Shown one piece after another: positions 4,398-24,156 of a DNA stretch of 26,166 nt. Origin of the DNA: an uncultured archaeon (GTDB lineage Archaea; Iainarchaeota; Iainarchaeia; Iainarchaeales; JAAZKV01); contig CAYLWD010000001.1 of NCBI GenBank assembly GCA_964387305.1, positions 1 through 26,166 on the forward strand, given 5' to 3'. The position numbers and the translations under genes are program-made. Under the pieces are notes generated by a model. The model was not told the DNA's origin, did not search any database, and worked only from the letters and a program-made list of their open reading frames with translations. Numbering within the stretch: the stretch's first letter is position 1; every line of letters starts with the position of its first letter.

Positions 4398-5342
4398 ATG
4401 AAAGCAAACATACTTGGAATTGATGGCACAAAAAAAGAAAGTATAGAATTGCCTAGCGTTTTTGAAACAACTTACAACCCTAATTTAATTAATAGGGCAG
4501 TACTTGCAATGCAAAGCGCAAAAAAACAACCCAAAGGAGCTAATCCAAGAGCAGGAAAAAATACTACTGCAATTTATGTTGGAAGCAGAAAAGCACCAAC
4601 TCCGATGCGTTCAATTAATGTTGAAAGAGCAAGATTACCTAGATTGAAAAATAGGAGACAATTGATTGCAGGAAGAGTTGCTAAAGTTCCTCACGCAGTT
4701 GGAGGAATGTCTGCACACCCACCAAAAGCTTGGAAAAAGTATTGGGAAAATATTAACAAAAAAGAAAGACGATTAGCATTAAAGAGTGCAATCGCTGCAA
4801 CAGCAAGCAAAGCACTAGTAGAAAAAAGATTTATTTTTGCAGGCGAATTACCTTTAATTGTTGAAGACAAAATGGAATCAATTACAAGAACAAAAGAACT
4901 AATAGGAATTTTTTCAAAAATTGGTGTAGTAAATGATGTTGAAAATGCTAAATCAAAGATAAGGGAAAGAGCAGGTAAAGGAAAAAAAAGAGGAAGAAGA
5001 TTTAAAGGAAAAAAGAGTTTACTTATTGTTACAGCAAAAAATGATAGAGTACTAAAAGCAGCTAGAAACATGCCTGGCGTAGAAGCAGTTACAATTAATT
5101 CATTAAATGCTGAATTACTTGCACCGGGCGGAGTGGCTGGAAGGCTAGTAGTTTGGACAGAAGGAGCAATAAATGCGCTTGGAGAAGGAAAAAAATCACC
5201 AACTACAAAAAGAGTTAGTGCAAAAGAAACAAAAATTGTTTTTGGAGATTGGAGAAAAAACAGGAAAGCAAAAAGAAATATTGCTGAAGCAAAAACAAAA
5301 GAATTAAAGAAAAGCAATCCAAAAAGTGAAGAGGAAGAATAA
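4398..5342 (+). CDS. rpl4: 50S ribosomal protein uL4 (with ~53-aa C-terminal extension)
   Basis: GG..AHPPKAWK, INKKERRLALKSAIAAT and LLAPGGVAGRLVVWTE motifs. Start moved to ATG 4398. Confidence 0.97.
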   Translation: MKANILGIDGTKKESIELPSVFETTYNPNLINRAVLAMQSAKKQPKGANPRAGKNTTAIYVGSRKAPTPMRSINVERARLPRLKNRRQLIAGRVAKVPHAVGGMSAHPPKAWKKYWENINKKERRLALKSAIAATASKALVEKRFIFAGELPLIVEDKMESITRTKELIGIFSKIGVVNDVENAKSKIRERAGKGKKRGRRFKGKKSLLIVTAKNDRVLKAARNMPGVEAVTINSLNAELLAPGGVAGRLVVWTEGAINALGEGKKSPTTKRVSAKETKIVFGDWRKNRKAKRNIAEAKTKELKKSNPKSEEEE

Positions 5343-5360
5343 AAAATATGGTGAGCATGA

Positions 5361-5816
5361 ATGGTTAAACTTAGTGAAGAACAAAAAAGACAAGAACTAC
5401 AAGAAGAGAATGCTAAAGCACAAGAGAAAACAAATGTTGCTAAAGAGAATATTGCCAAAGCTAGCACTAAAAACAAGGAAGACAAAGCAAAAAAGAACTT
5501 TGAAGCAAAAAAAACAGAGGGAAAAGAAATTAAAGGAATCACAGTTAATGCGACATTAGAAGATTTGGGAATGATTTTTTACCCACTGGTTACTGAAAAA
5601 TCAGTTAACATGATTGAAGCAGAAAATAAAATTACATTTATAATAAATGATAAAGCCAATAGAGAAAAAGTTAAGATACTTGTAGAAAAAATGTATTCAG
5701 TTAAAGTAGTAAAAGTAAATATTGTTAGAGATAGGAAAGGAAGAAAAAAAGCAATTGTTAGACTCGCAAAAGAAAATAAAGCATCAGAGTTAGCAACCAA
5801 GTTAGGAGTATTATAA
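5361..5816 (+). CDS. rpl23: 50S ribosomal protein uL23 (with ~65-aa N-terminal extension)
   Basis: IFYPLVTEKS...NKITFII...KKAIVRL...A.ELATKLGVL; SD GGTGA at 5350. Confidence 0.96.
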   Translation: MVKLSEEQKRQELQEENAKAQEKTNVAKENIAKASTKNKEDKAKKNFEAKKTEGKEIKGITVNATLEDLGMIFYPLVTEKSVNMIEAENKITFIINDKANREKVKILVEKMYSVKVVKVNIVRDRKGRKKAIVRLAKENKASELATKLGVL

Positions 5817-5833
5817 TTTTTTTGGTGAAAAAA

Positions 5834-6556
5834 ATGGGTAAACGATTAATATCACAAAGAAGAGGAAAAGGAAGTCACACCTTTAAAGCAAAACACAAAG
5901 GAATTGCCGCAAGATACTCTGCAATTAACACCCAAAAAATTAATGACACTTTAAAAGGGCATTTAGTTGAATTTATTAAAGACACGGGACGGAATGCAAT
6001 CCTCGCAAGAATAAAATTCAATTCAGGCGAAGAAGAAACTATAGTTGCTGCTGAAGGATTAATTTTGAATCAACCAATTCAACAAGGAAAAGAAGCAGGA
6101 ATTAGTATAGGAAATATTTCAGAAGTACAGTACTTACCCGAAGGATGCCCAATATTCAATATTGAAAAAAATAAGGGCGATGGAGGAGTATTTGTAAAGA
6201 GTGCAGGAAATTATGCATTATTAATGGCAAAAGATAGCAATAGCGTAACAGTAAAAATGCCTTCAGGAAAATTATTGAAATTACCTTTAGATGTTAGAGC
6301 AACAATTGGGAATGCGTCTTGTGGAGGAAAATCAGACAAGCCGTTCGTTAAAGCAGGAACAAAGTTCTATGCAATGAAAGCAAAGAGAAAAATGTACCCG
6401 ACAGTGAGGGGAGTTGCAATGAATGCAGTTGACCACCCATTCGGAGGAGCACAACACCACCCCGGAAAATCTAAGAGCACATCAAGAAACGCACCACCAG
6501 GAAGAAAAGTTGGAGCAATTGCATCAAAGAGAACAGGGAGAGCAAAGAAAGGTTAA
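5834..6556 (+). CDS. rpl2: 50S ribosomal protein uL2
   Basis: MGKRLISQRRGKGS, VRGVAMNAVDHPFGG and APPGRKVGAIASKRTG motifs. Confidence 0.98.
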   Translation: MGKRLISQRRGKGSHTFKAKHKGIAARYSAINTQKINDTLKGHLVEFIKDTGRNAILARIKFNSGEEETIVAAEGLILNQPIQQGKEAGISIGNISEVQYLPEGCPIFNIEKNKGDGGVFVKSAGNYALLMAKDSNSVTVKMPSGKLLKLPLDVRATIGNASCGGKSDKPFVKAGTKFYAMKAKRKMYPTVRGVAMNAVDHPFGGAQHHPGKSKSTSRNAPPGRKVGAIASKRTGRAKKG

Positions 6557-6610
6557 AATTAGAGATGCAATTATGGAAAATTATTTTGAGAAATGTTGAG
6601 AGGTTTTGAT

Positions 6611-7000
6611 ATGGCTAAAGAATTCACTTACAGAGGAAAAACGCTTGAAGAATTAAAGGCAATGCCCCTCGAAGAATTTGGAAAACTATGCAATTCAAGG
6701 GCCAGAAGAAGCTTGAAAGAGGGTTTTGACAAAAAACTTTTTAGCAAAATATTGAAATACAATCCAACGAATGTTAAACAAAAAGCAATTAGAACACACA
6801 GTAGAGATACTGTAATTATACCTCAAATGATTGGAGTAAAAATTGCTCTATATAGAGGAAATACTTTTGAGTTAATTGATGTAAAACCAACAATGATTGG
6901 ACATTACTTAGGAGAATTAATTTTAACACGAAAAAGATTAATGCACGGAAAAGCAGGAATCGGAGCAACGAAGAGTTCAACTGCAATAACTGCAAGGTAG
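6611..7000 (+). CDS. rps19: 30S ribosomal protein uS19
   Basis: FTYRGKTLEELKAM, IRTHSRD.VIIPQMIG and MIGHYLGE motifs. Confidence 0.96.
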   Translation: MAKEFTYRGKTLEELKAMPLEEFGKLCNSRARRSLKEGFDKKLFSKILKYNPTNVKQKAIRTHSRDTVIIPQMIGVKIALYRGNTFELIDVKPTMIGHYLGELILTRKRLMHGKAGIGATKSSTAITAR

Positions 7001-7024
7001 TAAATTTATTATTGGTGAAATGCA

Positions 7025-7498
7025 ATGGTTAAGAAAAATTATCAAGTGGAATTAGGCGACAAAAGAAAGACTGCGCGAGCAATAATAACAAACGCCCAAG
7101 TTTCATTGAAATATGCAACAACTATTTGCAACAAAATAAAGGGACAATTGGTTAACAAATCAATTGCATCAATGCAAAGAATAGAAGCGCACGAAGAATA
7201 TTTACCATTAACAAGATACAACAAAAAAATTGGACACAAAAAAGGAAATGCCTTAGGAACAACAAAATCAGGACGTTACCCAGAAAGAACCGTTGCAAAA
7301 TTTATTGAATTATTAAAATTAGTGAAAAACAATGCAGAAGCAAAAGGACTTGATTCAGAAAAATTGTCAGTTTTGAATGCATTCGCAAGCATGGGAATGT
7401 CAAGATACAATTCACAACCAAAAGGAAAAATTGGCGGAAAAATGCGTAGGCACAAATCAACACACTTAGAAATAATAGTAACGGAAGTGAAAGCATGA
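7025..7498 (+). CDS. rpl22: 50S ribosomal protein uL22
   Basis: VSLKYA, GRYPE and NAE.KGLD motifs; position in the operon. Confidence 0.96.
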   Translation: MVKKNYQVELGDKRKTARAIITNAQVSLKYATTICNKIKGQLVNKSIASMQRIEAHEEYLPLTRYNKKIGHKKGNALGTTKSGRYPERTVAKFIELLKLVKNNAEAKGLDSEKLSVLNAFASMGMSRYNSQPKGKIGGKMRRHKSTHLEIIVTEVKA

Positions 7499-8466
7499 TT
7501 GAAAGAAAATTTATTCAACAAAATTTGAGAAAAATGGAATTAGAAGAATACTTGGGTAAGAAACTTGACCGAGCAGGATTCACTCATGCAGATATTGTGA
7601 AGACTCCAATGGTTACAAGAATAATTTTGCACGTGTCAAAACCAGGACTTGCAATTGGAAAAGGAGGACAAACAATAAAACAACTAACTGAAGTTATTGG
7701 AAGAGATTACAAAATCGATAACCCCCAAATAGAAATTCAAGAAGTGAAGAACGCAAACTTGAATGCAAAAATACTGGTAGAAAAAATGGCTGCAATGATT
7801 GAAAGAGAATTTTCTTGGAGAAGCGTAGTATTCAAAGCAGTTAGTGAGATAGTTAATTCGGGCGCACAGGGAGTAGAACTTGTTGTTAAAGGAAAATTGA
7901 GTGGAAAAGGTGGAAGAAAAAGAAAAATGAGGATTGCATTTGGTTACATGAAAAAAATTGGTGAACAATCAAGATTAGTTGATTTTGCAAAAGCCCCAGC
8001 TTATCCAAAAGCAGGTGCAATTGGTTTGAGATTAAGAATAATTCATCCAGGGGTAGTATTCCCTGACAAAATTGATGTAACCAAAGTTATTCAAGACAAG
8101 AGACAACTTGTTGAAGACGCAAAAGAAGTGCTTGAGAAAAAAGAAGACAAAGTAAAAAAAATTGTTATTGAAGAAGAAATAGAAGAAGAAGTTGATGGGG
8201 AAGTAATAAAAGAATACAAAAAAGTAGAAGCTTATGTTCACAAAAAAGAAGCACAAGACGAAAAAGAAACAAAAACTGAAAAGAAAAAAGTGAAAGAAGA
8301 AAAAAAGGAAGTTAAAGTAAAAGAAGCAATAAGCGAAAAAAAAGAAGAAACGAAAGAAACTGAAAAGAAAGAAGAAAAAAAAGAAGTTCTGGATGAAAAG
8401 AAAGAAACAAAAGAAGAAAAAGTAAGTGAAAAAAAGGAAGAATCCCAAGAAGAGAAAAAGGAATGA
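7495..8466 (+). CDS. rps3: 30S ribosomal protein uS3 (with ~125-aa Lys/Glu C-terminal tail)
   Basis: KH domain PGLAIGKGG, GAQGVELVVKGKLSG; ATGA overlap with rpl22. Confidence 0.97.
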   Translation: MIERKFIQQNLRKMELEEYLGKKLDRAGFTHADIVKTPMVTRIILHVSKPGLAIGKGGQTIKQLTEVIGRDYKIDNPQIEIQEVKNANLNAKILVEKMAAMIEREFSWRSVVFKAVSEIVNSGAQGVELVVKGKLSGKGGRKRKMRIAFGYMKKIGEQSRLVDFAKAPAYPKAGAIGLRLRIIHPGVVFPDKIDVTKVIQDKRQLVEDAKEVLEKKEDKVKKIVIEEEIEEEVDGEVIKEYKKVEAYVHKKEAQDEKETKTEKKKVKEEKKEVKVKEAISEKKEETKETEKKEEKKEVLDEKKETKEEKVSEKKEESQEEKKE

Positions 8467-8484
8467 GAAAATTGAGTTGATTTT

Positions 8485-8685
8485 ATGAAGTACAAAGAAT
8501 TGAAGGAAAAAAGAGACGAAGAGCTTAATTCATTAGTTATTGAGTTAAAGCAAGAACTTGCTAAAGAAAAAGCAAAGACCGTTTCAGGAACAAAAGCAGA
8601 AAAGCCAGGACGAGTAAAAAAATTGAGGCGAGATGTTGCTAGAGTACTTACAGAAATTACGACAAGAAAGGGGGTTGTGGATTAA
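8485..8685 (+). CDS. rpl29: 50S ribosomal protein uL29
   Basis: ELK.K...EL...L..EL...KPGRVKKLRRDVARVLT pattern. Confidence 0.93.
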   Translation: MKYKELKEKRDEELNSLVIELKQELAKEKAKTVSGTKAEKPGRVKKLRRDVARVLTEITTRKGVVD

Positions 8686-8988
8686 ATGCAAGAGGTTGAC
8701 AAGATTAGTGGATTACCAAAAGATTTGTTCGATATTAGCAATATTGAAAAAGAACAACAAAAAATAAAAATTGTGGTAATTAAGAGAAGATTTAGAAAAT
8801 TAATTACAATCGTATCAGGATTTGATGATAAGGATAAAGCAAAAGAACTTGGAAAAGAAATGAAAATGAAATTTGCGTGTGGAGGAACTGTAAACGGAAC
8901 AGAAATTGAATTACAAGGAGATCACAGACAAAAAGCAAAGAAATTTTTGATTGAAAAAGGGTACAAAGAAGAATTGATTGAAGCATGA
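8686..8988 (+). CDS. Translation initiation factor aIF-1 (SUI1)
   Basis: SGLPKDL, KFACGGTV...IELQGDHR; conserved position after uL29. Confidence 0.96.
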   Translation: MQEVDKISGLPKDLFDISNIEKEQQKIKIVVIKRRFRKLITIVSGFDDKDKAKELGKEMKMKFACGGTVNGTEIELQGDHRQKAKKFLIEKGYKEELIEA

Positions 8989-9048
8989 ATGAATTGATTT
9001 GAAGATGTATTATTGAAGAAATGGAATTGATATTTTTGGAGGCAATAG

Positions 9049-9348
9049 ATGATTAAGACAGCGCATTACGAAATCAACGCGAAGAACTTAGCGTTCCACG
9101 AGTTGAACGGCTTGCGAGTCAAAGTCATTGAAAGCACCGATAAAGAAAAAAATGGAATAGACGGAGAAGTGATTGGAGAAACGAAGAACACATTGATAGT
9201 TTTGGTAAATGGAAAAGAAAAAGTTTTACCAAAAAACGAATGTGTATTTGAGTTTATCCTAGGCAAAGAAAAAGTAAAGTTGAATGGAAAAATTATTTGT
9301 AAAAGAGCAGAAGATAGAGTAAAAGATTGGAGGAACAACAATGGCTGA
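9049..9348 (+). CDS. rnp1: Ribonuclease P protein subunit Rpp29 (component 1)
   Basis: HELNGLRVKVIES...G..G.VIGETKNTL...PK..CVFEF; conserved position between aIF-1 and uS17. Confidence 0.92.
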   Translation: MIKTAHYEINAKNLAFHELNGLRVKVIESTDKEKNGIDGEVIGETKNTLIVLVNGKEKVLPKNECVFEFILGKEKVKLNGKIICKRAEDRVKDWRNNNG

Positions 9349-9694
9349 AGAAAAGAAAGAAAGAGCTGTTACAGCGAAAGTTGTTAAAGAAACACAAGGT
9401 TCTGGAACAAGCGGAACACAAAAAGAAAAAACTTATCCTATTAGAGGAAATGTTTTTGAAGGAAAAGTTGTTTCAGCAAAATCAAACAAAACAGTTACTA
9501 TTGAAAGAGAATTAACGCATTACATTTCTAAATACGAGAGATACTTGAAAATTCGGTCAAGAATAAAAGCACACAACCCAGAAAGTATTAATGCAAAAGA
9601 AGGAGACATTGTAACGGTTGGAGAAACTAGGAGAATATCAAAAACAAAGAGTTTTGTTGTAATAAAAATTTTGAATAAAGGAGAAAATAATTAA
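9341..9694 (+). CDS. rps17: 30S ribosomal protein uS17
   Basis: RGNVFEGKVVSAK..KTV.IER...KYERY...S.IKAHNP...GD.V.VGETR.ISKTKSFVV. Confidence 0.96.
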   Translation: MAEEKKERAVTAKVVKETQGSGTSGTQKEKTYPIRGNVFEGKVVSAKSNKTVTIERELTHYISKYERYLKIRSRIKAHNPESINAKEGDIVTVGETRRISKTKSFVVIKILNKGENN

Positions 9695-9726
9695 GAAAAT
9701 TGAATTTTGAATTATTAGGTGAGAAA

Positions 9727-10125: not shown

Positions 10126-10181
10126 AATTAATTTGATTATGATTGTATTGATTGGGATTTGGAGAAAAAATTGGTGATATT

Positions 10182-11262: not shown

Positions 11263-11318
11263 TAAAGCCAAGATAAAATTGTGGCATAAAAAAGTGAAAA
11301 ATGAAACGGTTGATGATT

Positions 11319-11819
11319 ATGGATATGAAAGAAATTTTGATTGACAAAATTGTAGTCAACATGGGGGTAGGCGGAGACCCAGATGAAATGAAAAGAGCAC
11401 AAAAAATAATGGATGTTGTTACAAAAAGAAAGTCAATTCAAACAAAAACACAAATGAAAGCACCCGAATGGGGTTTAAGGCCAGGACTTGCAATTGGATT
11501 AAAAGTTACTTTCAGAGGGAAGAGTGCAAGAGAATTTTTTGATAACACCATACTTGCTAAAGAAAAAAAATTGAGTGCAAAAAACTTTGATGAAAGAGGA
11601 AATTTTGGTTTTGGGGTTAAAGAATATATTGATATTCCTGGAATGCGATACGACCCAAAATTAGGAATCCGTGGCTTTGATGTGCTTGTTACCCTAAAAA
11701 GAAGAGGATATCGAGTTAAATCAAGAAAATTAAAACCAAGTAAAGTTGGAAAATCGCACGTAATAAACAAGCAAGAAGCAATTGACTTCGTGAAAACATT
11801 AGGAGTTGAAATTGAATGA
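11319..11819 (+). CDS. rpl5: 50S ribosomal protein uL5
   Basis: KIVVNMGVG, FDERGNFGFGVKEYIDIPGMRYDPKLGIRGFDV motifs. Confidence 0.97.
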   Translation: MDMKEILIDKIVVNMGVGGDPDEMKRAQKIMDVVTKRKSIQTKTQMKAPEWGLRPGLAIGLKVTFRGKSAREFFDNTILAKEKKLSAKNFDERGNFGFGVKEYIDIPGMRYDPKLGIRGFDVLVTLKRRGYRVKSRKLKPSKVGKSHVINKQEAIDFVKTLGVEIE

Positions 11820-11986
11820 CTGACACAGTAAAACAAAAATCAGAAAATGACAAGATGAAAAAAAGGAATAGAACTTGCAAAATTTGTGGAACAAGAAAAG
11901 GTTTTGTTAGAAAATACAAAATAGGAATTTGCAGGCGCTGCTTTAAGGATAATGCAGAAAGAATTGGATTTAGGAAATACGAGTGA
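11816..11986 (+). CDS. rps14: 30S ribosomal protein uS14 (56 aa, C4 zinc ribbon; not in the ORF track)
   Basis: My translation: MTDTVKQKSENDKMKKRNRTCKICGTRKGFVRKYKIGICRRCFKDNAERIGFRKYE. It has an ATGA overlap with rpl5 and sits in the canonical position. Confidence 0.95.
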   Translation: MTDTVKQKSENDKMKKRNRTCKICGTRKGFVRKYKIGICRRCFKDNAERIGFRKYE

Positions 11987-12447: not shown

Positions 12448-13050
12448 ATGACAGAAAAAGAAATGATTAAAGTAATTAAAGTGCCTGAGCAGATTAAGGT
12501 TGAAGTTATTGACGACAATACTTTAGAATTAAAATCTGATAAGGGTTCATTGAAGAGAACATTCAAGAGTCACAGATTAAAAATTAGCCATAAGGGAGAA
12601 CACATTACTCTTGAGGGGGCACCAAGCACAAAACAAACAAAAGCACTAATAGAATCAGTAACTGCGCACATTAGAAATATGGTTGAAGGATTGTTGTTTG
12701 GTTACAAAATAAAATTAAAAATTTGTTATTCACACTTCCCAATGACTGCAATGGTTGAAGGTGAGAGATTGAAAATAAAGAACTTTACTGGAGAAAAAGA
12801 TTTTAGGTATGCAAAAATCGTGCCGGGGGCAAAAGTAGAAGTAAAGGCACAAGAAATTACAATTACCGGAATAGATAAAGAAGTAGTGGGGCAAACAGCA
12901 GGAAACATGGAACTCGCGACAAAAGTACGCGGAGGAAAAGATATTAGGAGATTACAAGACGGAATATTTGTTACAGAAAGAGAATACAAACACAAGGGTT
13001 CTGAAGAATTACTTAAAGTAGAATCCGAAAAGGTAGTAGAGGTGCAATAA
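12448..13050 (+). CDS. rpl6: 50S ribosomal protein uL6
   Basis: AHIRNMVEGL..GY..KLKICYSHFP, KNFTGEK, D.R..QDGIFV; start moved to ATG 12448 after GTGAT. Confidence 0.96.
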   Translation: MTEKEMIKVIKVPEQIKVEVIDDNTLELKSDKGSLKRTFKSHRLKISHKGEHITLEGAPSTKQTKALIESVTAHIRNMVEGLLFGYKIKLKICYSHFPMTAMVEGERLKIKNFTGEKDFRYAKIVPGAKVEVKAQEITITGIDKEVVGQTAGNMELATKVRGGKDIRRLQDGIFVTEREYKHKGSEELLKVESEKVVEVQ

Positions 13051-13051: not shown

Positions 13052-13705
13052 ATGGTTGAAACTTTGAAAGAAACAAGTGCAAATACTGCAACAGAAAAAG
13101 TTATTACCAAAAAAATTACACCAACAGAAAAAGTTAGTATAAAAACAGCAGAAACAAAAACAACTAAACTAAAAAAAACTGATGAAGTAAAAACAGAGAA
13201 CAAAAAGGACGAAACCAAAGCTGAAGGCAAAAAGATTGAATCTAAAAAAAATGAAGTTAAGAAAGTTGAGTCAAAAAAAGTTGAAACTAAGAAGTATATT
13301 CCGTTTGAAGTTAAAATTAAAGTGAAGAAAAGCAAAGAAGCAAAAGAATTACAAGAAAAACTTAAAACAAAGAAAAAGCACCCAACTTTCAGAGGAAGGT
13401 TTGGAAAGAAATGTATTAGAAAAAAATCAATTGAGAAATGGAATAAATGGAGACACCCAAACGGAATCGATATGAAGAAAGAAAAGAAATACGGAGCAAG
13501 ACCAAAAACAGGTTACGCTAATCCCGCGTGGATGAAAGGAGTACACCCATCAGGATACAGAGAAATTGTTGTTAACAATATTAGTGATTTACAAAAAGTT
13601 AATGTGAATACAGAAGCTGCAAGAATTGGAGCTTGTGTTGGGAAAAGAAAATGGAATACAATAGTAAAAAAAGCGGGAGAAATGAAAATACACGTTTTGA
13701 ATTAA
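13052..13705 (+). CDS. rpl32e: 50S ribosomal protein eL32 (with ~90-aa N-terminal extension)
   Basis: C-terminal half KHPTFR...WRHPNGID...GY.NP...GVHPSGYREIVVNN...VGKRK...VLN; SD GAGGTG. Confidence 0.95.
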   Translation: MVETLKETSANTATEKVITKKITPTEKVSIKTAETKTTKLKKTDEVKTENKKDETKAEGKKIESKKNEVKKVESKKVETKKYIPFEVKIKVKKSKEAKELQEKLKTKKKHPTFRGRFGKKCIRKKSIEKWNKWRHPNGIDMKKEKKYGARPKTGYANPAWMKGVHPSGYREIVVNNISDLQKVNVNTEAARIGACVGKRKWNTIVKKAGEMKIHVLN

Positions 13706-14187: not shown

Positions 14188-14762
14188 TGGCTACTAAAAA
14201 AACTTACAAGACAAAGTTCAGGCGAAGGGCTGAAGGCAAAACCAATTACGAAAAGAGACTTGCTTTAGTAAAATCTGGGAAAGTAAGAATTGCTGTAAGA
14301 AAAACTGATAAGAGAATAATAGCGCAAGCAATAAAGTACAATAGAGTAGGTGACGAAACAATTGCTAACGCAGATTCAAGGGAATTAATGAAGTTTGGTT
14401 TTTATGGAACAAACAATACTCCGTCAGCATACCTAACCGGATTGTTAATCGGAAAAAGATTACTTGCAAAAGGAGAAAAAATAGCAATACTTGATATTGG
14501 GTTAAGAACACCAAGTCACGGAAATGTTTTATTTGGAGCACTAAAAGGAATTTCTGATTCAGGAATATCAATAAAACACAACCCCCAAGCAATTCCAAAA
14601 GAAGATAGAATAAACGCAACAGAATTAGACAAATATGCAAAAACTTTGGGAGACAAAGCAGAAAAAATGTTTTCAAGATATATTAAAGCTGGAATAAAAA
14701 TCGGGGAATTCAATAAAGCATTTAGTATAACAAAAACAGAAATAGAGAAGGTGAATAAATGA
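14187..14762 (+). CDS. rpl18: 50S ribosomal protein uL18
   Basis: FRRRAEGKTNYEKRLAL, N.PSAYLTGLLIG, ILDIGL motifs. Confidence 0.96.
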   Translation: MATKKTYKTKFRRRAEGKTNYEKRLALVKSGKVRIAVRKTDKRIIAQAIKYNRVGDETIANADSRELMKFGFYGTNNTPSAYLTGLLIGKRLLAKGEKIAILDIGLRTPSHGNVLFGALKGISDSGISIKHNPQAIPKEDRINATELDKYAKTLGDKAEKMFSRYIKAGIKIGEFNKAFSITKTEIEKVNK

Positions 14763-15511
14763 ATAGAAAAAGAGTAAATCCTAGAGGAGAAAAAGGCGGA
14801 CGCCCAGGATTTGGCGGAAAAGAAAAAACTGAAGAAGAAAGGAATCAAGAAAAAATTGTTAAAGCACTTGCTGAAAAAGAAAGAATTTTGAGTAATTGGA
14901 CCCCAAAAACAGTGTTAGGAAAAAAAGTTAAAGCCGGGGATATTAATTCACTTGATGAAATATTTAATAAAGGGCAAAAAATTTTGGAACCACAAATAGT
15001 TGATTCGTTAGCAAAATTTGAAGAAGTTACTATTGATGTTGCAAAAACAACTCACGTTGTTAGAGCTGGAAGAAAATTTTCTTACAGAGCAACCGTATTA
15101 ATTGGAAACAGAGCAGGATACATTGGAATAGGTACTGGAAAAGCTGTTGAAAGATTCCCCGCAATAGGAAAAGCGGTTAATGACGCAAAATTAAATTTGA
15201 AGAGAATATATTTGGGAGCAGGTTCTTGGGAAGAACAACCAACAACAGAAAAACATTCGATTCCATTCAAAGTAAAAGGGAAATGCGGGGGAGTACAATT
15301 AGTGTTATGGCCTGCACCAAAAGGGACTGGACTTGTGGTTGGAAAAAATGTTAGAGTTGTTTTAGAATTAGCTGGAGTAAAAGATGTTTGGAGTAAAGCA
15401 ACAGGAAGTTCTGACACAAGATTAAACTTTGTTAGAGCAGGGCTAGATGCTTTAGAACAAACTGGAAAAATGAAAGCATCAAAAGATATTGAAGAAAAGA
15501 TGACAAAGTGA
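14759..15511 (+). CDS. rps5: 30S ribosomal protein uS5
   Basis: WTPKT.LG..VK.G, LEPQIVD, HSIPFKVKGKCG, PAPKGTGLV motifs. Confidence 0.97.
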   Translation: MNRKRVNPRGEKGGRPGFGGKEKTEEERNQEKIVKALAEKERILSNWTPKTVLGKKVKAGDINSLDEIFNKGQKILEPQIVDSLAKFEEVTIDVAKTTHVVRAGRKFSYRATVLIGNRAGYIGIGTGKAVERFPAIGKAVNDAKLNLKRIYLGAGSWEEQPTTEKHSIPFKVKGKCGGVQLVLWPAPKGTGLVVGKNVRVVLELAGVKDVWSKATGSSDTRLNFVRAGLDALEQTGKMKASKDIEEKMTK

Positions 15512-16002: not shown

Positions 16003-16509
16003 ATGGTTGTAAGAAAGAGAAGGAAAAAAAATAAATTAATGGGACAAAGGACTAGAGGCGCAGGAAACACTAAAAATAGAAGAGGAGCTGGTTCTAGAGG
16101 TGGAAGAGGAGCATCAGGAGAAAACAAGCACAAATGGAATTCTGGAAATAGATACAAGGAACCAAACTATAAATTGAAAAATAATGCTGCAAATAAAAGA
16201 GAAATTAGTGTTGGAAAATTGTGTGAAATGATTGACGGAATGGTTGCAAAAGGAAGAGTAAAGAAAGATGGAGAATATTATATTGTTGATAAGAAATCAA
16301 AATACAACAAATTATTGAGCCAAGGAGAAGCTGATAAAAAAATTATTGTAAGAATAAACGCTTCAATGGGGGCAATAAAAAAAATTTTGAGTGCTGGTGG
16401 AAAATTTGAATACAAAAAGAAGGGCGTTGATGAAAAAGAATTGAGTACAATGACTGAGGATGATGAATTCGAAGTTGACGAAACATTAACAGAAGAGGAC
16501 GAACAATAA
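16003..16509 (+). CDS. rpl15: 50S ribosomal protein uL15 (acidic C-terminal tail)
   Basis: G.RT.G.G..KNRRGAGSRGGRG.SG..KHKW; AS.GA.KKI...GG. Confidence 0.95.
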   Translation: MVVRKRRKKNKLMGQRTRGAGNTKNRRGAGSRGGRGASGENKHKWNSGNRYKEPNYKLKNNAANKREISVGKLCEMIDGMVAKGRVKKDGEYYIVDKKSKYNKLLSQGEADKKIIVRINASMGAIKKILSAGGKFEYKKKGVDEKELSTMTEDDEFEVDETLTEEDEQ

Positions 16510-17976: not shown

Positions 17977-18002
17977 CATTGCGGTTGAGAAAATAGTAGT
18001 AC

Positions 18003-18545: not shown

Positions 18546-18561
18546 TTGAAAGTGATAAAAA

Positions 18562-18903
18562 ATGGTTAAACCGTACGAAAAGAGTTTGAAACACAAATTC
18601 AGAAAGACTCCAGGCAGAGTAACAAAAAAAGTTTTCTTTAAAGAAAAATCACAGAAAAAAAAATGCCCTGTTTGTGAAATAGAACTAGCTGGAGTAGCAT
18701 CAGGAAGAAAAGCAAAACTTGGAAAATTAAGTAAGTCGGAAAAACGTCCAAGTGCACCGTTTGGCGGGGTACTATCAGGAAAAGGAAGAGAACAAGTTTT
18801 TGTTGAAGCTGCTAAAGTGCACACAGGCGTAAAAACAATTGAAGATGTTGAAGAAAAGTACAAAGCATTTGTGAAACAAGCATTAGAAATGATGAAGAAA
18901 TAA
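18562..18903 (+). CDS. rpl34e: 50S ribosomal protein eL34
   Basis: RKTPG, CPVC..ELAGV, SKSEKRPSAPFGG motifs; position. Confidence 0.93.
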   Translation: MVKPYEKSLKHKFRKTPGRVTKKVFFKEKSQKKKCPVCEIELAGVASGRKAKLGKLSKSEKRPSAPFGGVLSGKGREQVFVEAAKVHTGVKTIEDVEEKYKAFVKQALEMMKK

Positions 18904-18928
18904 TTTAATACAAAAAGGATTGATGATT

Positions 18929-19144
18929 ATGAAAATAGGACAGATTTGCATTAAAACAAAAGGACGAGAAGCTGGAAGAAAGGCAATTGTACTTTCTGAA
19001 GTAAAAGAAGGACGCGTACTTATTGACGGACCAAAAGTAAAGAGAAAAGAATGCAATGTTTTGCATTTATTTCCAACAGGACAAATAGTAGATATTAAAG
19101 AGAATGCAAGTCACGAAGAAGTTTTGAAAATTTTAAATAAATAG
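18929..19144 (+). CDS. rpl14e: 50S ribosomal protein eL14
   Basis: IGQICIKTKGREAGRKAIV...VLIDGPKVKRKECNVLHLFPT. Confidence 0.95.
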   Translation: MKIGQICIKTKGREAGRKAIVLSEVKEGRVLIDGPKVKRKECNVLHLFPTGQIVDIKENASHEEVLKILNK

Positions 19145-19155
19145 GATTGATGATT

Positions 19156-19686
19156 ATGAGCGAAGAAGTAAATTACATTATTCGTGTATTGGGGAAAGAC
19201 CTTGACGGAACTGTTAGTGTTGAAAGCGCATTAAGGGGGATAAAAGGAATCAATCATAGAGTAGGAAAAATAATTGCAACAGAATTTTTTAAAGAAAAAA
19301 AATATCCTATAGGAAAAAAAATGGGAGAATTGACTCCAAGTGATATTGCTTATCTTGAAGAAATAATTACTCACCCAGAAAAACACGGTTTGCCGGAATG
19401 GGCACTTAATAGGCAAAAGGACTTTGAAACGGGAGAAAGCAAACACAAAATAATGAATGACTTGGATTTTTCAGTTAGAACTGACATTCAAAGATTAGCG
19501 GATATTAAATCTTACAGAGGATTAAGACTTTCTTGGGGATTAACAGTAAGGGGACAAAGAACAAAGAGTACTCACAGAGGAAAAGGAACTGTTGTTGGTG
19601 TAATGAAAAAGGATGCAGGCCCTGGAAAAGGGGCAAAGCCAGTAGCCGGAGCAGATAAAGGAAAAGGCGGAGACAAGAAAAAATAA
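19156..19686 (+). CDS. rps13: 30S ribosomal protein uS13
   Basis: IIRV...DLDG, AL..IKGI, P.W.LNRQKD.ETG, SYRGLR...GL.VRGQRTKST.R.G motifs. Confidence 0.97.
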   Translation: MSEEVNYIIRVLGKDLDGTVSVESALRGIKGINHRVGKIIATEFFKEKKYPIGKKMGELTPSDIAYLEEIITHPEKHGLPEWALNRQKDFETGESKHKIMNDLDFSVRTDIQRLADIKSYRGLRLSWGLTVRGQRTKSTHRGKGTVVGVMKKDAGPGKGAKPVAGADKGKGGDKKK

Positions 19687-19699
19687 TTAAGTGATACTT

Positions 19700-20410
19700 A
19701 TGGGTGATCCAAAAAAACTAAAAAAAGGATATAGCGTTCCTAGAAAAAGATGGGAAAAAGAAAGAATCGAAGATGAAAATAAAATAATTGAAGCTTATGG
19801 TTTGAAAAATAAACGAGAATTATATAGAATGGAAAATTTAATTAGAGCAAAAAGAACAACTGGAAGAAAATTACTTGCACTTGATTTAGAAACAAGGATT
19901 AAAAGAGAAAAAGAATTGCTTGATTCAATGAAAAAAATTGGAGTGTTAAGAGGAAATCCAACACTAGAAGATATTTTATCATTGAAGACAAACGATTTGC
20001 TTGAAAGACGATTACAAACAATTGTTTGGAGAAAAGGATTAGCAGGAACAACAAAACAAGCAAGACAATTTATTACACACGGACACATTGCAATAAACGG
20101 AAAAAAAGTTGATTTACCTGGATATATTGTTGGATTGGATGAAGAAGATAATATTACTTACCACGGAAAAGAAATGATTGTAGAAGGGAAGAAAACAAAA
20201 CGCATTGGTGCAAAAAAAGAGGATGCTAAAAAAGAATTAAGAGAAGATTTTGAAGAAGCAAAAGGAGACGAAGAAGAAAGTTCTGATGCTGATGAAGAAA
20301 GTGAAGAAACAAACGAAGATGTAGATTCGAAAGAAAAAAAAGAAACTGTTAAAAGCGATAGTAAAATTAAGGCAGTAGATGTTAAGGAAAAAAAAGTTGG
20401 TGAAGAATAA
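19700..20410 (+). CDS. rps4: 30S ribosomal protein uS4 (with ~70-aa charged C-terminal tail)
   Basis: [46 protein letters not shown]. Confidence 0.97.
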
Positions 20411-20802
20411 TGGCTGATAATCGAGGAATAGTTCACGTTTATGCAACACACAATAACACTATGCTAATGCTCACTGACATGAGTGGAGCAGAAACAATTG
20501 CAAAGTACACTGGTGGAATGGAAACAAAAGCACAACACAAAGAAGGAACTCCTTATGTTGCAATGAAACTCTCAGAATATATTGCTAATGCCGCAAGAGA
20601 AAAAGGGATTAGAGAAATTTTTGTTAAAGTTAGAGCACACGGTGGAAATAGGAGTACAAGCACTGGACCCGGAGCCGAAGCAGCAATTCGTTCATTAACA
20701 AGAAACGGGTTGAGAATAATTTCAATTGAAAATATTACTCCGATGCCACACGATGGGTGCAGGAAGAAAGAAAAATTTAGGGGAAAAGCAGCTAACAAAT
20801 AA
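20410..20802 (+). CDS. rps11: 30S ribosomal protein uS11
   Basis: GIVHVYAT.NNT, GAETIA, TPY.AM, GPGAEAAIRSL, TPMPHDG; TAATG coupling with rps4. Confidence 0.97.
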   Translation: MADNRGIVHVYATHNNTMLMLTDMSGAETIAKYTGGMETKAQHKEGTPYVAMKLSEYIANAAREKGIREIFVKVRAHGGNRSTSTGPGAEAAIRSLTRNGLRIISIENITPMPHDGCRKKEKFRGKAANK

Positions 20803-20830
20803 ATAAATGTTGGAAAAAGGTGTTGATAAT

Positions 20831-21583
20831 ATGGTTATTGAAGTAAAAAAAATTTTTGAAGAAAATGGGTTGACGAAATACTTGATAAAAGGAGTTGACT
20901 CCGTATTCATGAACTCAATAAGAAGAATAACAATGAATGCAGTGCCTTGCCTTGCAATTGACACAGTTAATATTTATTCAAACGATTCAGTGATTAACGA
21001 TGAAATGCTAGCACATAGATTAGCAATGCTACCAATAAAGACGGACGTTAAAGGATATAAAAAAGGACAAAGCGTTAAATTGGTGCTAGAAGCAGAAGGC
21101 CCTTGCATGGTTACAAGCAAAGATATTAAGAGTACTGACCCTAAGGTAGAAATACTCGAAAAAGAAATTCCAATAGTAAAATTAGGTAAAGGAGAAAAAT
21201 TAAAATTAGAAATGAGTGCAATGATGGGAGTTGGAAAAGAACACGTAAAGTTCCAGCCAGGAATTATTGCATACAACCAAGCACCCAACATTAATAATGA
21301 AAAGAGTTACAAGATTCGAGAAATTTTATCAGAATTTCCAAAAGGAATTATTGACGAAAAAGCAGGAAAATTATTTTTAGTTGATCCTTATAATTTGAAG
21401 AATAGTAGTCAACACGAGGACTTGATGAAAAAATTCGGAATAGAATTAGAATATTCTGATGACGAATTTGTTTTAACAATAGAATCAACAGGACAATTAG
21501 ATGCTGACGAGATAGTAGAATCAGCAGTAGATGTATTAAAAGAAAAACTTGACACTCTTGCAGAAGAGGTTAAGAAATTATAG
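20831..21583 (+). CDS. rpoD: DNA-directed RNA polymerase subunit D (Rpo3)
   Basis: NSIRR...VP.LAID.V....NDS...DEMLAHRLAMLP, IPIVKL..GEKL, G.GKEHVKFQP, ESTGQL motifs. Confidence 0.97.
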   Translation: MVIEVKKIFEENGLTKYLIKGVDSVFMNSIRRITMNAVPCLAIDTVNIYSNDSVINDEMLAHRLAMLPIKTDVKGYKKGQSVKLVLEAEGPCMVTSKDIKSTDPKVEILEKEIPIVKLGKGEKLKLEMSAMMGVGKEHVKFQPGIIAYNQAPNINNEKSYKIREILSEFPKGIIDEKAGKLFLVDPYNLKNSSQHEDLMKKFGIELEYSDDEFVLTIESTGQLDADEIVESAVDVLKEKLDTLAEEVKKL

Positions 21584-21669
21584 GCCAATAAGTTATTTAG
21601 CACAGCAAGGGCTACCGAAGGTGCCCAATTCCCGCGCGAAATTTGTCGCGCCGCGAAATTTGCCGTGCC

Positions 21670-21830
21670 GCAGGGGTTCCCGAGCGGTCAAAGGGGCAGG
21701 ACTTAAGTTGCAATTAGTTAGTTGTGAAAAGCAATTTGCAGAGCAAAGTGTTTTGAGAAAAAAAGTGGAAGATTTGCAGTAGAAATCCTGTGGCTTAGTG
21801 CCTTCAAGAGTTCGAATCTCTTCCCCTGCA
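21670..21830 (+). tRNA. tRNA-Leu(UAA) with a 77-nt intron at canonical position 37/38 (intron 21708-21784); CCA not encoded
   Basis: Acceptor GCAGGGG/CCCCTGC with discriminator A, D-arm CCC..GGTCAAA..GGG, anticodon stem CAGGA/TCCTG with loop CT-TAA-G|A, long variable arm GGC-TTAGT-GCC, T-arm AAGAG-TTCGAAT-CTCTT. Confidence 0.95.
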
Positions 21831-21884
21831 ATTTTAGTAATTTAGTAAGTTGGTTTTTAAAGTAAGGTTAGTAAAAGTGATTGT

Positions 21885-22232
21885 ATGGAAAAAAAATTAG
21901 AAACAACAAGGCTTGTCGCTGAATTAGAAAAAGCTTCAAGAAAAACTGAAAAAAATCTTTGGAAAGATTTGGCTAAAAGAATGGATGCCCCTAGAAGACA
22001 AAACATTGTTGTTAATGTCGGTAAATTAAGCAAACTTGCAAAAAAGTTTAAGGGGAAAACATTAATTGTGCCTGGAAAAATTTTGTCAGAAGGAGATTAT
22101 ACTGAAAAAGCAACTATCGTTGCTATAAGTGCATCAGAGAGTGCAAAGAAAAAAATTAGTAAAACAGGAAAATTTGTTTTATTGAAAGATTTTATTGGAC
22201 AAGAAACAAAAAACACAGTAATAATTAAATGA
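21885..22232 (+). CDS. rpl18e: 50S ribosomal protein eL18
   Basis: LWKDLAKRM..PRR....VNVGKL, IVPGKILSEG, S.SA.KKI motifs. Confidence 0.95.
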   Translation: MEKKLETTRLVAELEKASRKTEKNLWKDLAKRMDAPRRQNIVVNVGKLSKLAKKFKGKTLIVPGKILSEGDYTEKATIVAISASESAKKKISKTGKFVLLKDFIGQETKNTVIIK

Positions 22233-22251
22233 TTTTTAGAGTGTGAATACG

Positions 22252-22662
22252 ATGATTGTTGACGGAACAGGATTAGTTGCAGGACGAGCAGCAACAAGAA
22301 TAGCAAAAGCTTTAATCAAAAATGAGAGTGTTATTGTAGTTAATTCAGAAAACTTTTTGCTAGTTGGAACTAAAGAAGCCAGTATGGAAAAATACATTAA
22401 GAGAGTAAACGCTTCAGTTAAGTCAAATCCCCATTATGGGCCAAAATTTGATAGGATTCCAAGCAAAATGTTCAAATTTATGGTAAAAGGAATGTTGCCA
22501 AACAGAAAAAAAACAGCATTAAGAGTATTGAAGAATTTGAAGGTTTATAACAAAAATCTTTCAAATTTAAAAGGCGATGTAATAGAAAAATCAAAATGTA
22601 ATGACAAGCACGATTCAACAACACTAAAAGAAATTGCTGAATCACTTGGCGGAAGATGGTAA
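22252..22662 (+). CDS. rpl13: 50S ribosomal protein uL13 (start may be GTG 22243)
   Basis: IVDG...VAGR.A..IAK.L...E.VIVVNSE, GPK..R.P..MF...VKGMLP, L..IAESLGG.W. Confidence 0.95.
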   Translation: MIVDGTGLVAGRAATRIAKALIKNESVIVVNSENFLLVGTKEASMEKYIKRVNASVKSNPHYGPKFDRIPSKMFKFMVKGMLPNRKKTALRVLKNLKVYNKNLSNLKGDVIEKSKCNDKHDSTTLKEIAESLGGRW

Positions 22663-22708
22663 TTTAATTGATGAAATTTATTTAGATGATGATTTAACGG
22701 TGAAATAA

Positions 22709-23164
22709 ATGGATGAGAAACATATTGAAGAAGTAGTTGAAGAGAAGAAAGTAAAGCCCGCTACAAAAAAAGCAGGGATGACAGTTAAAGCAAAAAAGAA
22801 AACTGCTATTGCCAGAGCGGTTATTAGAAAAGGAAAAGGAAGGATTACTGTTAATAAAATTAATTTGAAGAATTATGCTAGGGGCTATGTACTTGATTTC
22901 ATAACACAACCATTAGTATTAGCTGAAGGAGCTATTGATGAGTATGATGTGGACATAAAAGTACAAGGCTCTGGATTTATGAGTCAAGCAGTTGCTATAA
23001 GAGCATGCCTAGCAAAAGCGATTGTTAGAGCAAAAGGCAAAAAATTCAAGGAAATGTTCCTTGCATTTGACAGATTACTTTTAGTTGATGATGTAAGAAA
23101 AGTTGAATCGAAGAAACCACTTGGAAGAAAAGCAAGAAGCAAAAAACAAAGCAGTAAAAGGTAA
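22709..23164 (+). CDS. rps9: 30S ribosomal protein uS9
   Basis: KKKTAIARAVIRKGKGRITVN, VQGSGFMSQA, DRLLLVDD.R..E.KK..G.KAR.KKQSSKR. Confidence 0.97.
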   Translation: MDEKHIEEVVEEKKVKPATKKAGMTVKAKKKTAIARAVIRKGKGRITVNKINLKNYARGYVLDFITQPLVLAEGAIDEYDVDIKVQGSGFMSQAVAIRACLAKAIVRAKGKKFKEMFLAFDRLLLVDDVRKVESKKPLGRKARSKKQSSKR

Positions 23165-23188
23165 AAAAAAATATTTGGAGATGGTTAA

Positions 23189-23383
23189 ATGATTGTTCCG
23201 GTAAGATGTTTTTCGTGTGGAAAACCAGTTGGTGCGTTGTACGAACAATACAAACAACGCGTAGCTAAAGGTGAAGAGCCTAGAAAAGTTCTTGATGATT
23301 TAAAAGTAACAAGATACTGTTGTAGAAAAATGCTTTTGACTCACGCAGAATTGATTGATGAAATAATGGTATTTAATAAATAA
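23189..23383 (+). CDS. rpoN: DNA-directed RNA polymerase subunit N (Rpo10)
   Basis: [12 protein letters not shown]...LDDL...RYCCRKML. Confidence 0.98.
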
Positions 23384-23394
23384 AGGGGATTTTG

Positions 23395-24156
23395 ATGAAG
23401 AGAAATACACGAACAACAAGAGATAGGCGCGATAGGGTAGAACAAAAACCAGTTATAGAAATTAATGAAACTGGAGAAGAAGATTACCTAAAGAGTAACA
23501 AAGCCCTATTGACTGATGTTGAAACTTACTTGAAATCAGGAATCCATATCGGAACAAAATTCAAAACCGGAGAAATGAGGCGCTACATCTTCAAAAAACG
23601 GGGAGATGGGCTCATGGTTTTTAATATTGAACAAATTGATGACAAAATAAGAATGGTTGCAAAATTTTTATCAACTTATGACCCAAAAGAAATTGCTTTA
23701 GTTTCAAAAAGAGTTTATGGACACAAACCAATAAAGAAATTTGCTGGATTAACAGGAGCAAGAGCATTCACTGGAAGATTCATTCCGGGAACATTCACTA
23801 ACCCCACGGCAAGAATATTTGTTGAACCCAAAGTAGTTATTGTGTGCGACCCAATGATTGATTCACAAGCAATAAAAGAAGCAACACAAAACAATGCAAT
23901 AGTTATTGCAGTTGCTGGAAGCGATTCTCCTTTGAAGAATATTGATATTGCAATACCAACAAACAACAAGGGAAGAAAATCATTAGCATTATTGTTTTAC
24001 TTGTTGGCAAGAGAAGTTCTTGTTGCTAGAAAAGAAATTTCTTCAGAAGCATTCAAAGAGAAAGTAGAGGACTTCGAACAAGAAATCGAAGAAAAAAAGA
24101 TGGAAAAAATACAGCAACAAAGAATGCAAGACAGAAGATTCAGACGAAGATTCTGA
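23395..24156 (+). CDS. rps2: 30S ribosomal protein uS2 (charged N- and C-terminal extensions)
   Basis: [52 protein letters not shown] motifs. Confidence 0.97.

What the first reader, a model, noticed from the sequence alone, without database searches (positions are those of the whole stretch)
4398..24156. Cluster-wide accretion of Lys/Glu-rich low-complexity extensions on ribosomal proteins
Seen: extensions on uL4 (C, ~53 aa), uL23 (N, ~65), uS3 (C, ~125), uL6 (C, ~20), eL32 (N, ~90), uS5 (N), uL15 (C, ~30, acidic), uS4 (C, ~70) and uS2 (N and C), totalling several hundred residues. The same locus has shed its metabolic genes. Inference: a ribosome coated with disordered polyampholyte tails, perhaps for solubility, crowding or phase behaviour, or as factor-docking sites, in an otherwise streamlined genome. 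A-rich mutational slippage is the alternative explanation.
Basis: partly seen in the sequence, partly recalled or inferred. Interest (0 to 1): 0.6.

Follow-up and report, generated by a model that had tools for sequence, protein, structure and literature searches.

The report
Charged floppy tails on archaeal ribosomal proteins
Nine ribosomal proteins of this tiny uncultured archaeon (Iainarchaeota, DPANN) really carry about 500 extra, translated, charged and probably floppy residues, but such tails are a habit of the whole lineage and a known kind of ribosome decoration whose job is untested.

Summary
Compared with solved Thermococcales ribosomal proteins, uL4, uL23, uS3, uL6, eL32, uS5, uL15, uS4 and uS2 carry about 500 extra terminal residues (45% Lys+Glu, net charge about zero).

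- **Translation:** the N-terminal tails are translated. GGTGA ribosome-binding sites precede the upstream ATGs. In 50-67 related genomes the frame stays open and starts within a few bases of the previous stop.
- **Disorder:** AlphaFold gives low confidence or coil for the uS3 and eL32 tails.
- **Not special to this window:** the uS3 and eL32 tails occur in all sampled Iainarchaeota, uL23 and uL15 in about three quarters, and uL4 only in the window's family. Lys/Glu-rich stretches also occur on eL31, eS19, RNA polymerase A'', NDK and RIO1 elsewhere in the genome. Methanosarcina uS3 and Haloarcula eL32 are similarly long.
- **Against pure A-rich slippage:** uS3 tail length does not depend on GC (27-59%). 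Each protein keeps its own net charge across species while the sequence turns over. Several tails hold short conserved motifs.
- **Repeats:** internal repeats are not significant in this window, but they are in 12 of 68 relatives.

This is a new member of a known kind (Ntountoumi 2019). This scan has found it before on other DPANN and Asgard DNA. Function is unknown.

The parts
5196..5339 (+). uL4 C-terminal tail, 48 aa, basic (gene 4398-5342)
   Evidence: Tko/Pfu uL4 (255 aa) aligns to q4-265. The tail is present only in the window's family, 34% of 67 loci, median net charge per residue +0.21.
5361..5555 (+). uL23 N-terminal extension, 65 aa (gene 5361-5816)
   Evidence: Archaeal uL23 (81-86 aa) aligns to q71-150. 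GGTGA lies 6 nt before ATG 5361, and there is no SD before the internal ATG 5571. In-frame stops are depleted in 67 loci. A conserved MVKLxEEEKKQ start and an ATLEDL segment flank a variable linker.
8110..8463 (+). uS3 C-terminal tail, about 115 aa, 64% K+E, neutral (gene 7495-8466)
   Evidence: Pfu uS3 (210 aa) aligns to q2-198. pLDDT is 37-61. The tail is present in 77 of 77 loci, median 95 aa. There is no sequence homology beyond composition. Net charge per residue is 0.00 across species.
13003..13047 (+). uL6 C-terminal tail, about 15 aa (gene probably 12448-13050)
   Evidence: Tko uL6 (184 aa) aligns to q24-194. The tail is conserved in the family only. The start is revised by a GTGAT motif.
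13052..13327 (+). eL32 N-terminal extension, about 91 aa, K/T/E-rich, basic (gene 13052-13705)
   Evidence: Pfu eL32 (130 aa) aligns to q96-217. GAGGTG precedes ATG 13052. Residues 1-80 are coil with pLDDT 35-61, and 81-107 are confident. The extension is present in all 54 loci, median 80 aa.
14759..14851 (+). uS5 N-terminal extension, about 31 aa, R/K/G/E-rich (gene 14759-15511)
   Evidence: Pfu uS5 aligns to q41-246 from its residue 10. GGTGA precedes the ATG, which overlaps the uL18 stop. The frame is open in 44 of 50 loci.
16417..16506 (+). uL15 C-terminal acidic tail, 30 aa, with an acidic-Phe motif (gene probably 16003-16509)
   Evidence: Pfu uL15 (147 aa) aligns to q12-143. Tails of 20 aa or more occur in 76% of 50 loci, median net charge per residue -0.33. 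A DEDLEFE-type motif is seen in 14 of 50, with looser acidic-Phe forms in others.
20237..20407 (+). uS4 C-terminal tail, 57 aa, acidic, starting with the conserved FEEAK(P/G) motif (gene 19700-20410)
   Evidence: Tko uS4 (180 aa) aligns to q4-168. The motif is seen in most of 19 relatives, and the distal part varies. Median net charge per residue is -0.12.
23395..23496 (+). uS2 N-terminal extension, about 34 aa, R/E-rich (gene 23395-24156)
   Evidence: Tko uS2 (201 aa) aligns to q40-232 from its residue 5. Relatives of the family share an acidic, Tyr-containing segment before the core.
24088..24153 (+). uS2 C-terminal tail, about 20 aa, Arg-rich
   Evidence: The DFEQEI segment is the normal uS2 end. 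An R-rich tail follows in all 16 relatives scored, net charge per residue +0.21.

Best explanation
The window is the ribosomal-protein superoperon of an Iainarchaeota (Diapherotrites, DPANN) genome. Nine of its ribosomal proteins carry translated, mostly disordered, highly charged terminal tails.

The tails sit at solvent-exposed termini. Their sequence turns over fast, in the lineage partly by in-frame duplication. Their presence, rough length and a protein-specific net charge are kept: neutral for uS3, basic for uL4, eL32, uL23 and the uS2 C-tail, acidic for uL15 and uS4.

I infer that selection acts on bulk physical properties. The tails would be a flexible electrostatic surface layer on the ribosome. 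Some would also act as variable linkers that tether short conserved motifs (uL23 N-terminus, uL15 acidic-Phe motif, uS4 FEEAKP).

Shown here: the tails exist, they are translated by sequence criteria, they are predicted disordered, and their distribution and charge are conserved. Inferred: selection on bulk properties and any docking role. What the tails do in the cell is not known.
For: - **Identity and extent:**
- **Translation of the N-terminal tails:** an SD-like motif lies before the upstream start of uL23, eL32 and uS5. Such motifs precede 19 of 36 genes against 6.9% of internal start-like codons. Between the previous stop and the core, in-frame stops number 40, 32 and 6, against 244-310, 183-406 and 67-150 in the other frames. 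The first start lies a median of -4 to +4 nt from the previous stop.
- **Conserved N-terminal motif of uL23:**
- **Disorder:**
- **Lineage-wide presence:**
- **GC independence:** uS3 tail length is independent of GC over 27-59% (rho 0.12), while composition shifts from K/E to A/K/E/P.
- **Sequence turnover:** no residual homology in the uS3, uL4 and eL32 tails at 75% core identity.
- **Charge:** protein-specific net charge with narrow spread across species, and charges better mixed than shuffles in 91-96% of species.
- **Duplication:** significant internal DNA repeats in 12 of 68 relatives' uS3 tails.
Against: - There is no protein-level evidence (proteomics, structure) that the tails are kept on mature ribosomes.
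- Kin are not independent, so the cross-species statistics overstate.
- In this window the internal repeats are no better than a codon-shuffle null, so the growth mechanism is not shown here.
- K and E codons differ by one transition, so a K/E mix could partly be mutational.
- Lys/Glu-rich stretches also occur on unrelated proteins in the genome, so a general genomic tendency contributes.
- Low pLDDT is only a proxy for disorder.
Confidence: 0.6

Rival explanations
1. Neutral by-product. Purine-rich replication slippage and in-frame duplication add junk residues at termini that tolerate them. The tails have no function and persist because they are harmless.
For: - Tail DNA is 71-83% purine and 50-61% A.
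- There is no sequence conservation in the uS3, uL4 and eL32 tails.
- Lengths vary widely.
- Recent duplications occur in relatives.
- Similar stretches sit on unrelated proteins.
- One relative has the eL32 tail at the other end of the protein.
Against: - Tails persist at similar length in genomes of 50-59% GC, with a different composition.
- Net charge is protein-specific and narrowly kept.
- The uS3 and eL32 tails are present in every sampled species.
- Conserved motifs occur inside the uL23, uL15 and uS4 tails.
- Ribosomal proteins are abundant, so about 10% extra residues is costly.
Confidence: 0.25
2. Structural RNA-binding arms. The basic tails (uL4, eL32, uL23, uS2) bind rRNA and compensate for reduced rRNA or missing proteins in a streamlined DPANN ribosome.
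For: - These tails are net positive.
- The core-proximal part of the eL32 extension is conserved and confidently modelled.
- Lysine-rich low-complexity regions are read as nucleic-acid binding in PMC6821194.
Against: - The largest tail (uS3) is neutral, and uL15 and uS4 are acidic.
- Glu makes up 15-17% of the basic tails.
- The variable parts show no conservation and low pLDDT.
- rRNA content was not examined here.
Confidence: 0.1
3. Annotation artefact. Wrong start codons, or frameshift or assembly errors in A-runs, create apparent extensions.
For: Two apparent N-terminal additions (uL6, uL15) do vanish with the better-supported downstream starts. The purine-rich DNA is open in several frames.
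Against: SD motifs, frame-specific depletion of stops and conserved N-terminal motifs support the long forms. C-terminal tails recur in up to 77 independent assemblies and in hundreds of database proteins.
Confidence: 0.03

Closest known systems
Low-complexity regions of prokaryotic ribosomal proteins (Ntountoumi et al. 2019, NAR, PMC6821194)
   Same: Terminal low-complexity stretches rich in Ala, Glu and Lys on ribosomal proteins, conserved as a feature across genera. Archaeal S3 is listed among the carriers.
   Different: That survey used 102 cultured-type archaeal genera and stringent criteria. It reports single proteins. It does not report many proteins per genome, or the protein-specific charge seen here. 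DPANN were not treated as a group.
Long uS3 of Methanosarcina acetivorans (318 aa, PDB 9o17, PMC12605026) and long eL32 and uL15 of haloarchaea (Haloarcula eL32 240 aa, uL15 165 aa, PDB 1jj2/1s72)
   Same: The same proteins are extended at the same termini.
   Different: The haloarchaeal uL15 tail resembles this one in composition only. The composition of the Methanosarcina and Haloarcula tails was not examined here. The cited paper does not discuss the uS3 tail.
Eukaryote-specific extensions of uL4 (C), uL23 (N, L23eN), uS5 (N), uS2 (C), uS3 and uS4 (C)
   Same: The same termini are lengthened. Eukaryotic chains are longer there in the PDB comparison.
   Different: No homology was found: no Pfam family matches any tail at E up to 1. 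Melnikov et al. report the eukaryotic NLS motifs of uS3, uS4 and uL23 as absent from archaea. Eukaryotic extensions are largely ordered on rRNA expansion segments (established knowledge, not tested here).
ER/K single alpha-helix (SAH) domains
   Same: E/K-rich composition. AlphaFold draws a long helix for uS3 residues 265-322.
   Different: E(i)-K(i+4) pairs are depleted, not enriched (6 against 13.1±2.4, and 2 against 7.8±1.7). The helix has pLDDT of only 52-61.

Membership tests
Low-complexity terminal regions of prokaryotic ribosomal proteins | Carried by a bona fide ribosomal protein orthologue | tested here: met
   Pfam and PDB matches
Low-complexity terminal regions of prokaryotic ribosomal proteins | Composition dominated by a few residues (Ala, Glu, Lys) | tested here: met
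   K+E is 45% overall and 64% in uS3. Entropy is 2.3-3.6 bits against 4.0 in the cores.
Low-complexity terminal regions of prokaryotic ribosomal proteins | The feature recurs in orthologues of many genera | tested here: met
ER/K single alpha-helix domain | Enrichment of oppositely charged i to i+4 pairs | tested here: not met
   Depleted by about 3 SD against shuffles
Eukaryotic uL23 N-terminal domain (Ribosomal_L23eN) and other eukaryote-specific extensions | Detectable sequence homology to the eukaryotic extension | tested here: not met
   No Pfam hit to any tail at E up to 1. phmmer alignments that reach into the tail are compositional.
In-frame mobile palindromic repeats (Rickettsia RPE-like), a lead from earlier scan notes | A shared hairpin-forming DNA repeat inside several tails | tested here: not met
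   No inverted repeat lies within the tails. None of 21 tail pairs shares DNA above a codon-shuffle null.
Tandem-repeat-built tails | Internal DNA repeats above the composition null | tested here: inconclusive
   TRF lists 75-, 33-, 30-, 27- and 15-nt periods. In this window they do not beat codon shuffles (p 0.28 for uS3, 0.03 for eL32). They are significant in 12 of 68 relatives.

The most novel reading that the evidence does not exclude
The tails are a selected, eukaryote-like enlargement of the ribosome surface that arose independently in DPANN archaea. Each protein would hold a set net charge. Several tails would act as flexible tethers for short conserved motifs that recruit lineage-specific partners. 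Candidates are the uL23 N-terminal MVKLxEEEKKQ motif near the tunnel exit, the uL15 acidic-Phe motif and the uS4 FEEAKP motif.
Probability: 0.2. Interest if true: 0.6.

Novelty: new member of a known kind. Interest (0 to 1): 0.3.

Why it matters
If the tails stay on mature ribosomes, about a tenth of the ribosomal-protein mass encoded in this window is flexible charged surface. That is unexpected for organisms otherwise known for genome reduction. It would give a prokaryotic parallel to the extensions of eukaryotic ribosomal proteins. The protein-specific charge and the tethered motifs are concrete handles for experiments. As it stands, this is one more example of a lineage-wide habit that the literature already describes in kind and that this scan has met repeatedly.

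Tried and rejected
- **Pfam on the isolated tails:** no hits, so homology to eukaryotic extensions is rejected.
- **SAH reading of the uS3 tail:** rejected by the i to i+4 count.
- **Tandem-repeat growth in this window:** TRF rows did not survive codon-shuffle controls.
- **Cassette copying between tails and RPE-like palindromes (leads from earlier notes):** not found here.
- **Taxonomy of distant tail-bearing uS3 representatives:** The wider range therefore rests on an unnamed tree.
- **Loose terminal-charge scan of the proteome:** it also flags canonical basic arms and 27% of all ORFs, so it was not used as evidence.
- **Control genomes of the genome search:** they give no lengths.
- **Literature searches:** no paper on DPANN ribosomal-protein tails was found.
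- **ESM Atlas:** it only re-confirmed Iainarchaeota.
Full report
**What the window is.** The 26,166-base window is a whole contig of a 766-kb, 33% GC, roughly 80% complete genome bin. On the + strand it carries the archaeal ribosomal-protein superoperon. The order is uL3, uL4, uL23, uL2, uS19, uL22, uS3, uL29, SUI1, Rpp29, uS17, uL14, uL24, eS4, uL5, uS14, uS8, uL6, eL32, eL19, uL18, uS5, uL30, uL15, SecY, an EMC3-like membrane protein, eL34, eL14, uS13, uS4, uS11, RpoD, a tRNA, eL18, uL13, uS9, RpoN and uS2. Record titles of the closest loci, names given by the protein sources and the ESM Atlas all place it in Candidatus Iainarchaeota, also called Diapherotrites, a DPANN phylum.

**Checking the observation.** I aligned each protein to the chains of solved archaeal ribosomes. 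The table gives the extras relative to Pyrococcus or Thermococcus.

| Protein | Terminus | Extra residues |
|---|---|---|
| uL4 | C | +48 |
| uL23 | N | +65 |
| uS3 | C | about +115 |
| uL6 | C | +15 |
| eL32 | N | +91 |
| uS5 | N | +31 |
| uL15 | C | +30 |
| uS4 | C | +57 |
| uS2 | N and C | +34 and about +20 |

The total is about 500 residues. They are 45% Lys+Glu and 54% charged, with net charge -4. The cores of the same proteins are 22% Lys+Glu with net charge +514.

Three refinements apply.
- The apparent extra N-termini of uL6 and uL15 come from upstream GTG or TTG codons. The better-supported starts are ATG 12448 and ATG 16003.
- The DFEQEI segment of uS2 is its normal C-terminus. Only the Arg-rich 20 residues after it are extra.
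- The tails fall into three charge classes. They are not one Lys/Glu type.

**Are the tails translated?** C-terminal tails are simply read until the stop codon. The N-terminal ones needed a test.
- A GGTGA or GAGGTG motif lies 5-8 nt before the upstream ATG of uL23, eL32 and uS5. None lies before the internal alternatives.
- Such motifs precede 19 of 36 genes here, against 6.9% of internal start-like codons.
- In 50-67 Iainarchaeota loci I examined the stretch between the previous gene's stop and the conserved core. It holds 40, 32 and 6 in-frame stops for uL23, eL32 and uS5. The other two frames hold 244-310, 183-406 and 67-150.
- The first in-frame start lies a median of +4, -1 and -4 nt from the previous stop.
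- The uL23 extension begins with a conserved MVKLxEEEKKQ motif in the family.

I conclude that true starts include the tails. There is no protein-level evidence.

**Structure.** AlphaFold2 with alignments of relatives models the cores well. For uS3 residues 221-272 it gives pLDDT below 50. It then draws a long helix at 265-322 with pLDDT of only 52-61. For eL32 it gives no secondary structure and pLDDT 35-61 over residues 1-80, followed by a confident conserved segment at 81-107.

The uS3 helix is not an ER/K single alpha-helix, because E(i)-K(i+4) pairs are depleted about 3 SD below shuffles. Charges in the uS3 and eL32 tails are mixed more evenly than in 98-99% of shuffles. This fits an expanded, well-mixed polyampholyte.

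**Distribution.**
- In 20 genomes of the same family and order, and in 80 further Iainarchaeota species loci, the uS3 tail is present in 77 of 77 (median 95 aa) and the eL32 extension in 54 of 54 (median 80 aa).
- uL23 has 20 aa or more in 78%, uL15 in 76% and uS5 in 55%.
- uL4 has a tail in 34%, essentially the window's own family. The uL6 tail is almost confined to that family.
- The 120 best database homologues of the uS3 core are 62-76% identical, and nearly all are 236-345 aa long.
- Beyond the phylum, a profile search of 1.84 billion cluster representatives gave 131 complete uS3 cores, of which 85% have 40 or more extra residues.
- In a midpoint-rooted tree, 132 representatives fall outside the clade spanned by my 98 Iainarchaeota sequences, and 83% of those carry such tails.

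Caveats on the last two points:
- These representatives are unnamed.
- Clustering at 50% identity over-counts variable-tailed proteins.
- The rooting is rough.

Among cultured archaea, Methanosarcina acetivorans uS3 is 318 aa and its uS4 is 218 aa (PDB 9o17, identified through PMC12605026). Haloarcula eL32 is 240 aa with about 100 extra N-terminal residues. Thermococcales and Sulfolobales proteins are short. Within this genome, Lys/Glu-rich windows also occur on eL31, eS19, RNA polymerase A'', NDK, RIO1 kinase, DnaJ, DNA ligase and FtsY, besides the coiled coils of SMC and Rad50. The trait is therefore not cluster-specific.

**Slippage or selection?** The tail DNA is 71-83% purine. TRF lists in-frame periods of 75, 33, 30, 27 and 15 nt. 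In this window those repeats do not exceed a codon-shuffle null (p 0.67 and 0.28 ungapped, 0.28 and 0.03 gapped). No two tails share DNA above chance. In relatives, 12 of 68 uS3 tails and 4 of 39 eL32 extensions do hold significant internal repeats. In-frame duplication is thus a real source in the lineage, but it is not visible here.

Several results argue against slippage as the whole story.
- uS3 tail length is unrelated to GC over 27-59% (rho 0.12, p 0.29), while composition shifts from K/E to A/K/E/P/G.
- Tails of uS3, uL4 and eL32 show no order-dependent similarity even to relatives with 75% identical cores.
- Net charge per residue is nevertheless protein-specific and narrowly kept. The medians are uS3 0.00 (IQR -0.03 to 0.05), uL15 -0.33, uS4 -0.12, uL23 +0.10, eL32 +0.14, uL4 +0.21 and the uS2 C-tail +0.21.
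- Charges are better mixed than shuffles in 91-96% of species.
- Short motifs are conserved within variable tails. These are the uL23 N-terminal motif and ATLEDL, a uL15 acidic-Phe motif of the DEDLEFE type and uS4 FEEAK(P/G).

Related species are not independent, so these counts overstate significance.

**Interpretation.** The best reading (about 0.6) is a lineage-wide set of disordered charged tails at solvent-exposed termini, maintained for bulk properties, with some acting as tethers for short motifs. What they do is not known, whether surface electrostatics, spacing, solubility or partner recruitment. The main rival (about 0.25) is tolerated junk from purine-rich expansion. A role as rRNA-binding arms is possible for the basic tails only (about 0.1). 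An annotation artefact is largely excluded.

**Comparison with what is known.** Low-complexity Ala/Glu/Lys stretches on prokaryotic ribosomal proteins, including archaeal S3, were surveyed by Ntountoumi et al. 2019 (PMC6821194). The same termini are lengthened in eukaryotes (uL4 C, uL23 N, uS5 N, uS2 C). No homology is detectable, however, and Melnikov et al. found the eukaryotic uS3, uS4 and uL23 NLS motifs absent from archaea. My literature searches found no paper that describes DPANN tails as such.

This scan has already reported the same habit in Woesearchaeota, Iainarchaeota and Hermodarchaeota windows. I tested two of their specific leads here. Cassette copying between tails and a palindromic in-frame repeat were both negative. 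Two others agree with what I found in this genome: tails on RNA polymerase A'', and on eS19 and eL31.

**Verdict.** This is a new member of a known kind, of modest interest.

**The side remark on metabolic genes.** An archaeal cmk lies about 3.2 kb downstream of uS5 in two other families of the order (G025 above the family cut-off, G019 below it). It is not between eL34 and eL14 here. The best cmk-model hit in this incomplete genome is 36 bits against a cut-off of 102. adk was not tested.

Noticed in passing
window 21670-21830 (+): tRNA-Leu(UAA) with a 77-nt intron at the canonical 37/38 site, between RpoD and eL18. Default ARAGORN and Rfam missed it, and ARAGORN with introns allowed found it. 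It is preceded by two tandem copies of a GC-rich 17-mer (21635-21671).
   Followed up: partly
window 4389, 11292-11343, 18902-18953, 19129-19180: A shared start context, GGATTGATGATTATG, occurs at uL4, uL5, eL14 and uS13. The ORFs begin LMIM or MMIM, and the last ATG is probably the true start.
   Followed up: no
window 11816-11986 (+): A zinc-type uS14 of 56 aa overlaps the uL5 stop and the uS8 start. It is below the 60-aa ORF cut-off, so it is easily missed.
   Followed up: partly
G000 contigs C43:3427-3882, C43:4163-4732, C21:2893-4266, C32:5443-5997, C13:38-862, C118:1-1439: Lys/Glu-rich terminal or inserted stretches occur on eL31, eS19, RNA polymerase A'', NDK, RIO1 kinase and DNA ligase of the same genome. 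The habit is therefore not limited to this locus or to ribosomal proteins.
   Followed up: partly
L035:8942-9430 (G024): In this relative, eL32 has almost no N-terminal extension. It carries a 37-aa K/E-rich tail at its C-terminus instead.
   Followed up: no
L025/L026 (G021) uS4 tail: The conserved FEEAKP motif of the uS4 tail is present twice in tandem in this relative. This is an example of motif duplication within a tail.
   Followed up: no
window 18903-18929; G025:C16:6360-6818; G019:C2:82457-82948: Archaeal cytidylate kinase lies inside the ribosomal cluster in two other families of the order. It is missing between eL34 and eL14 here, and no hit above the family cut-off was found in this 80% complete genome.
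   Followed up: partly
window 2-1153 and 2122-2808 (+): Two ORFs upstream of uL3 (383 aa, open at the contig end, and 228 aa) have no Pfam match.
   Followed up: no
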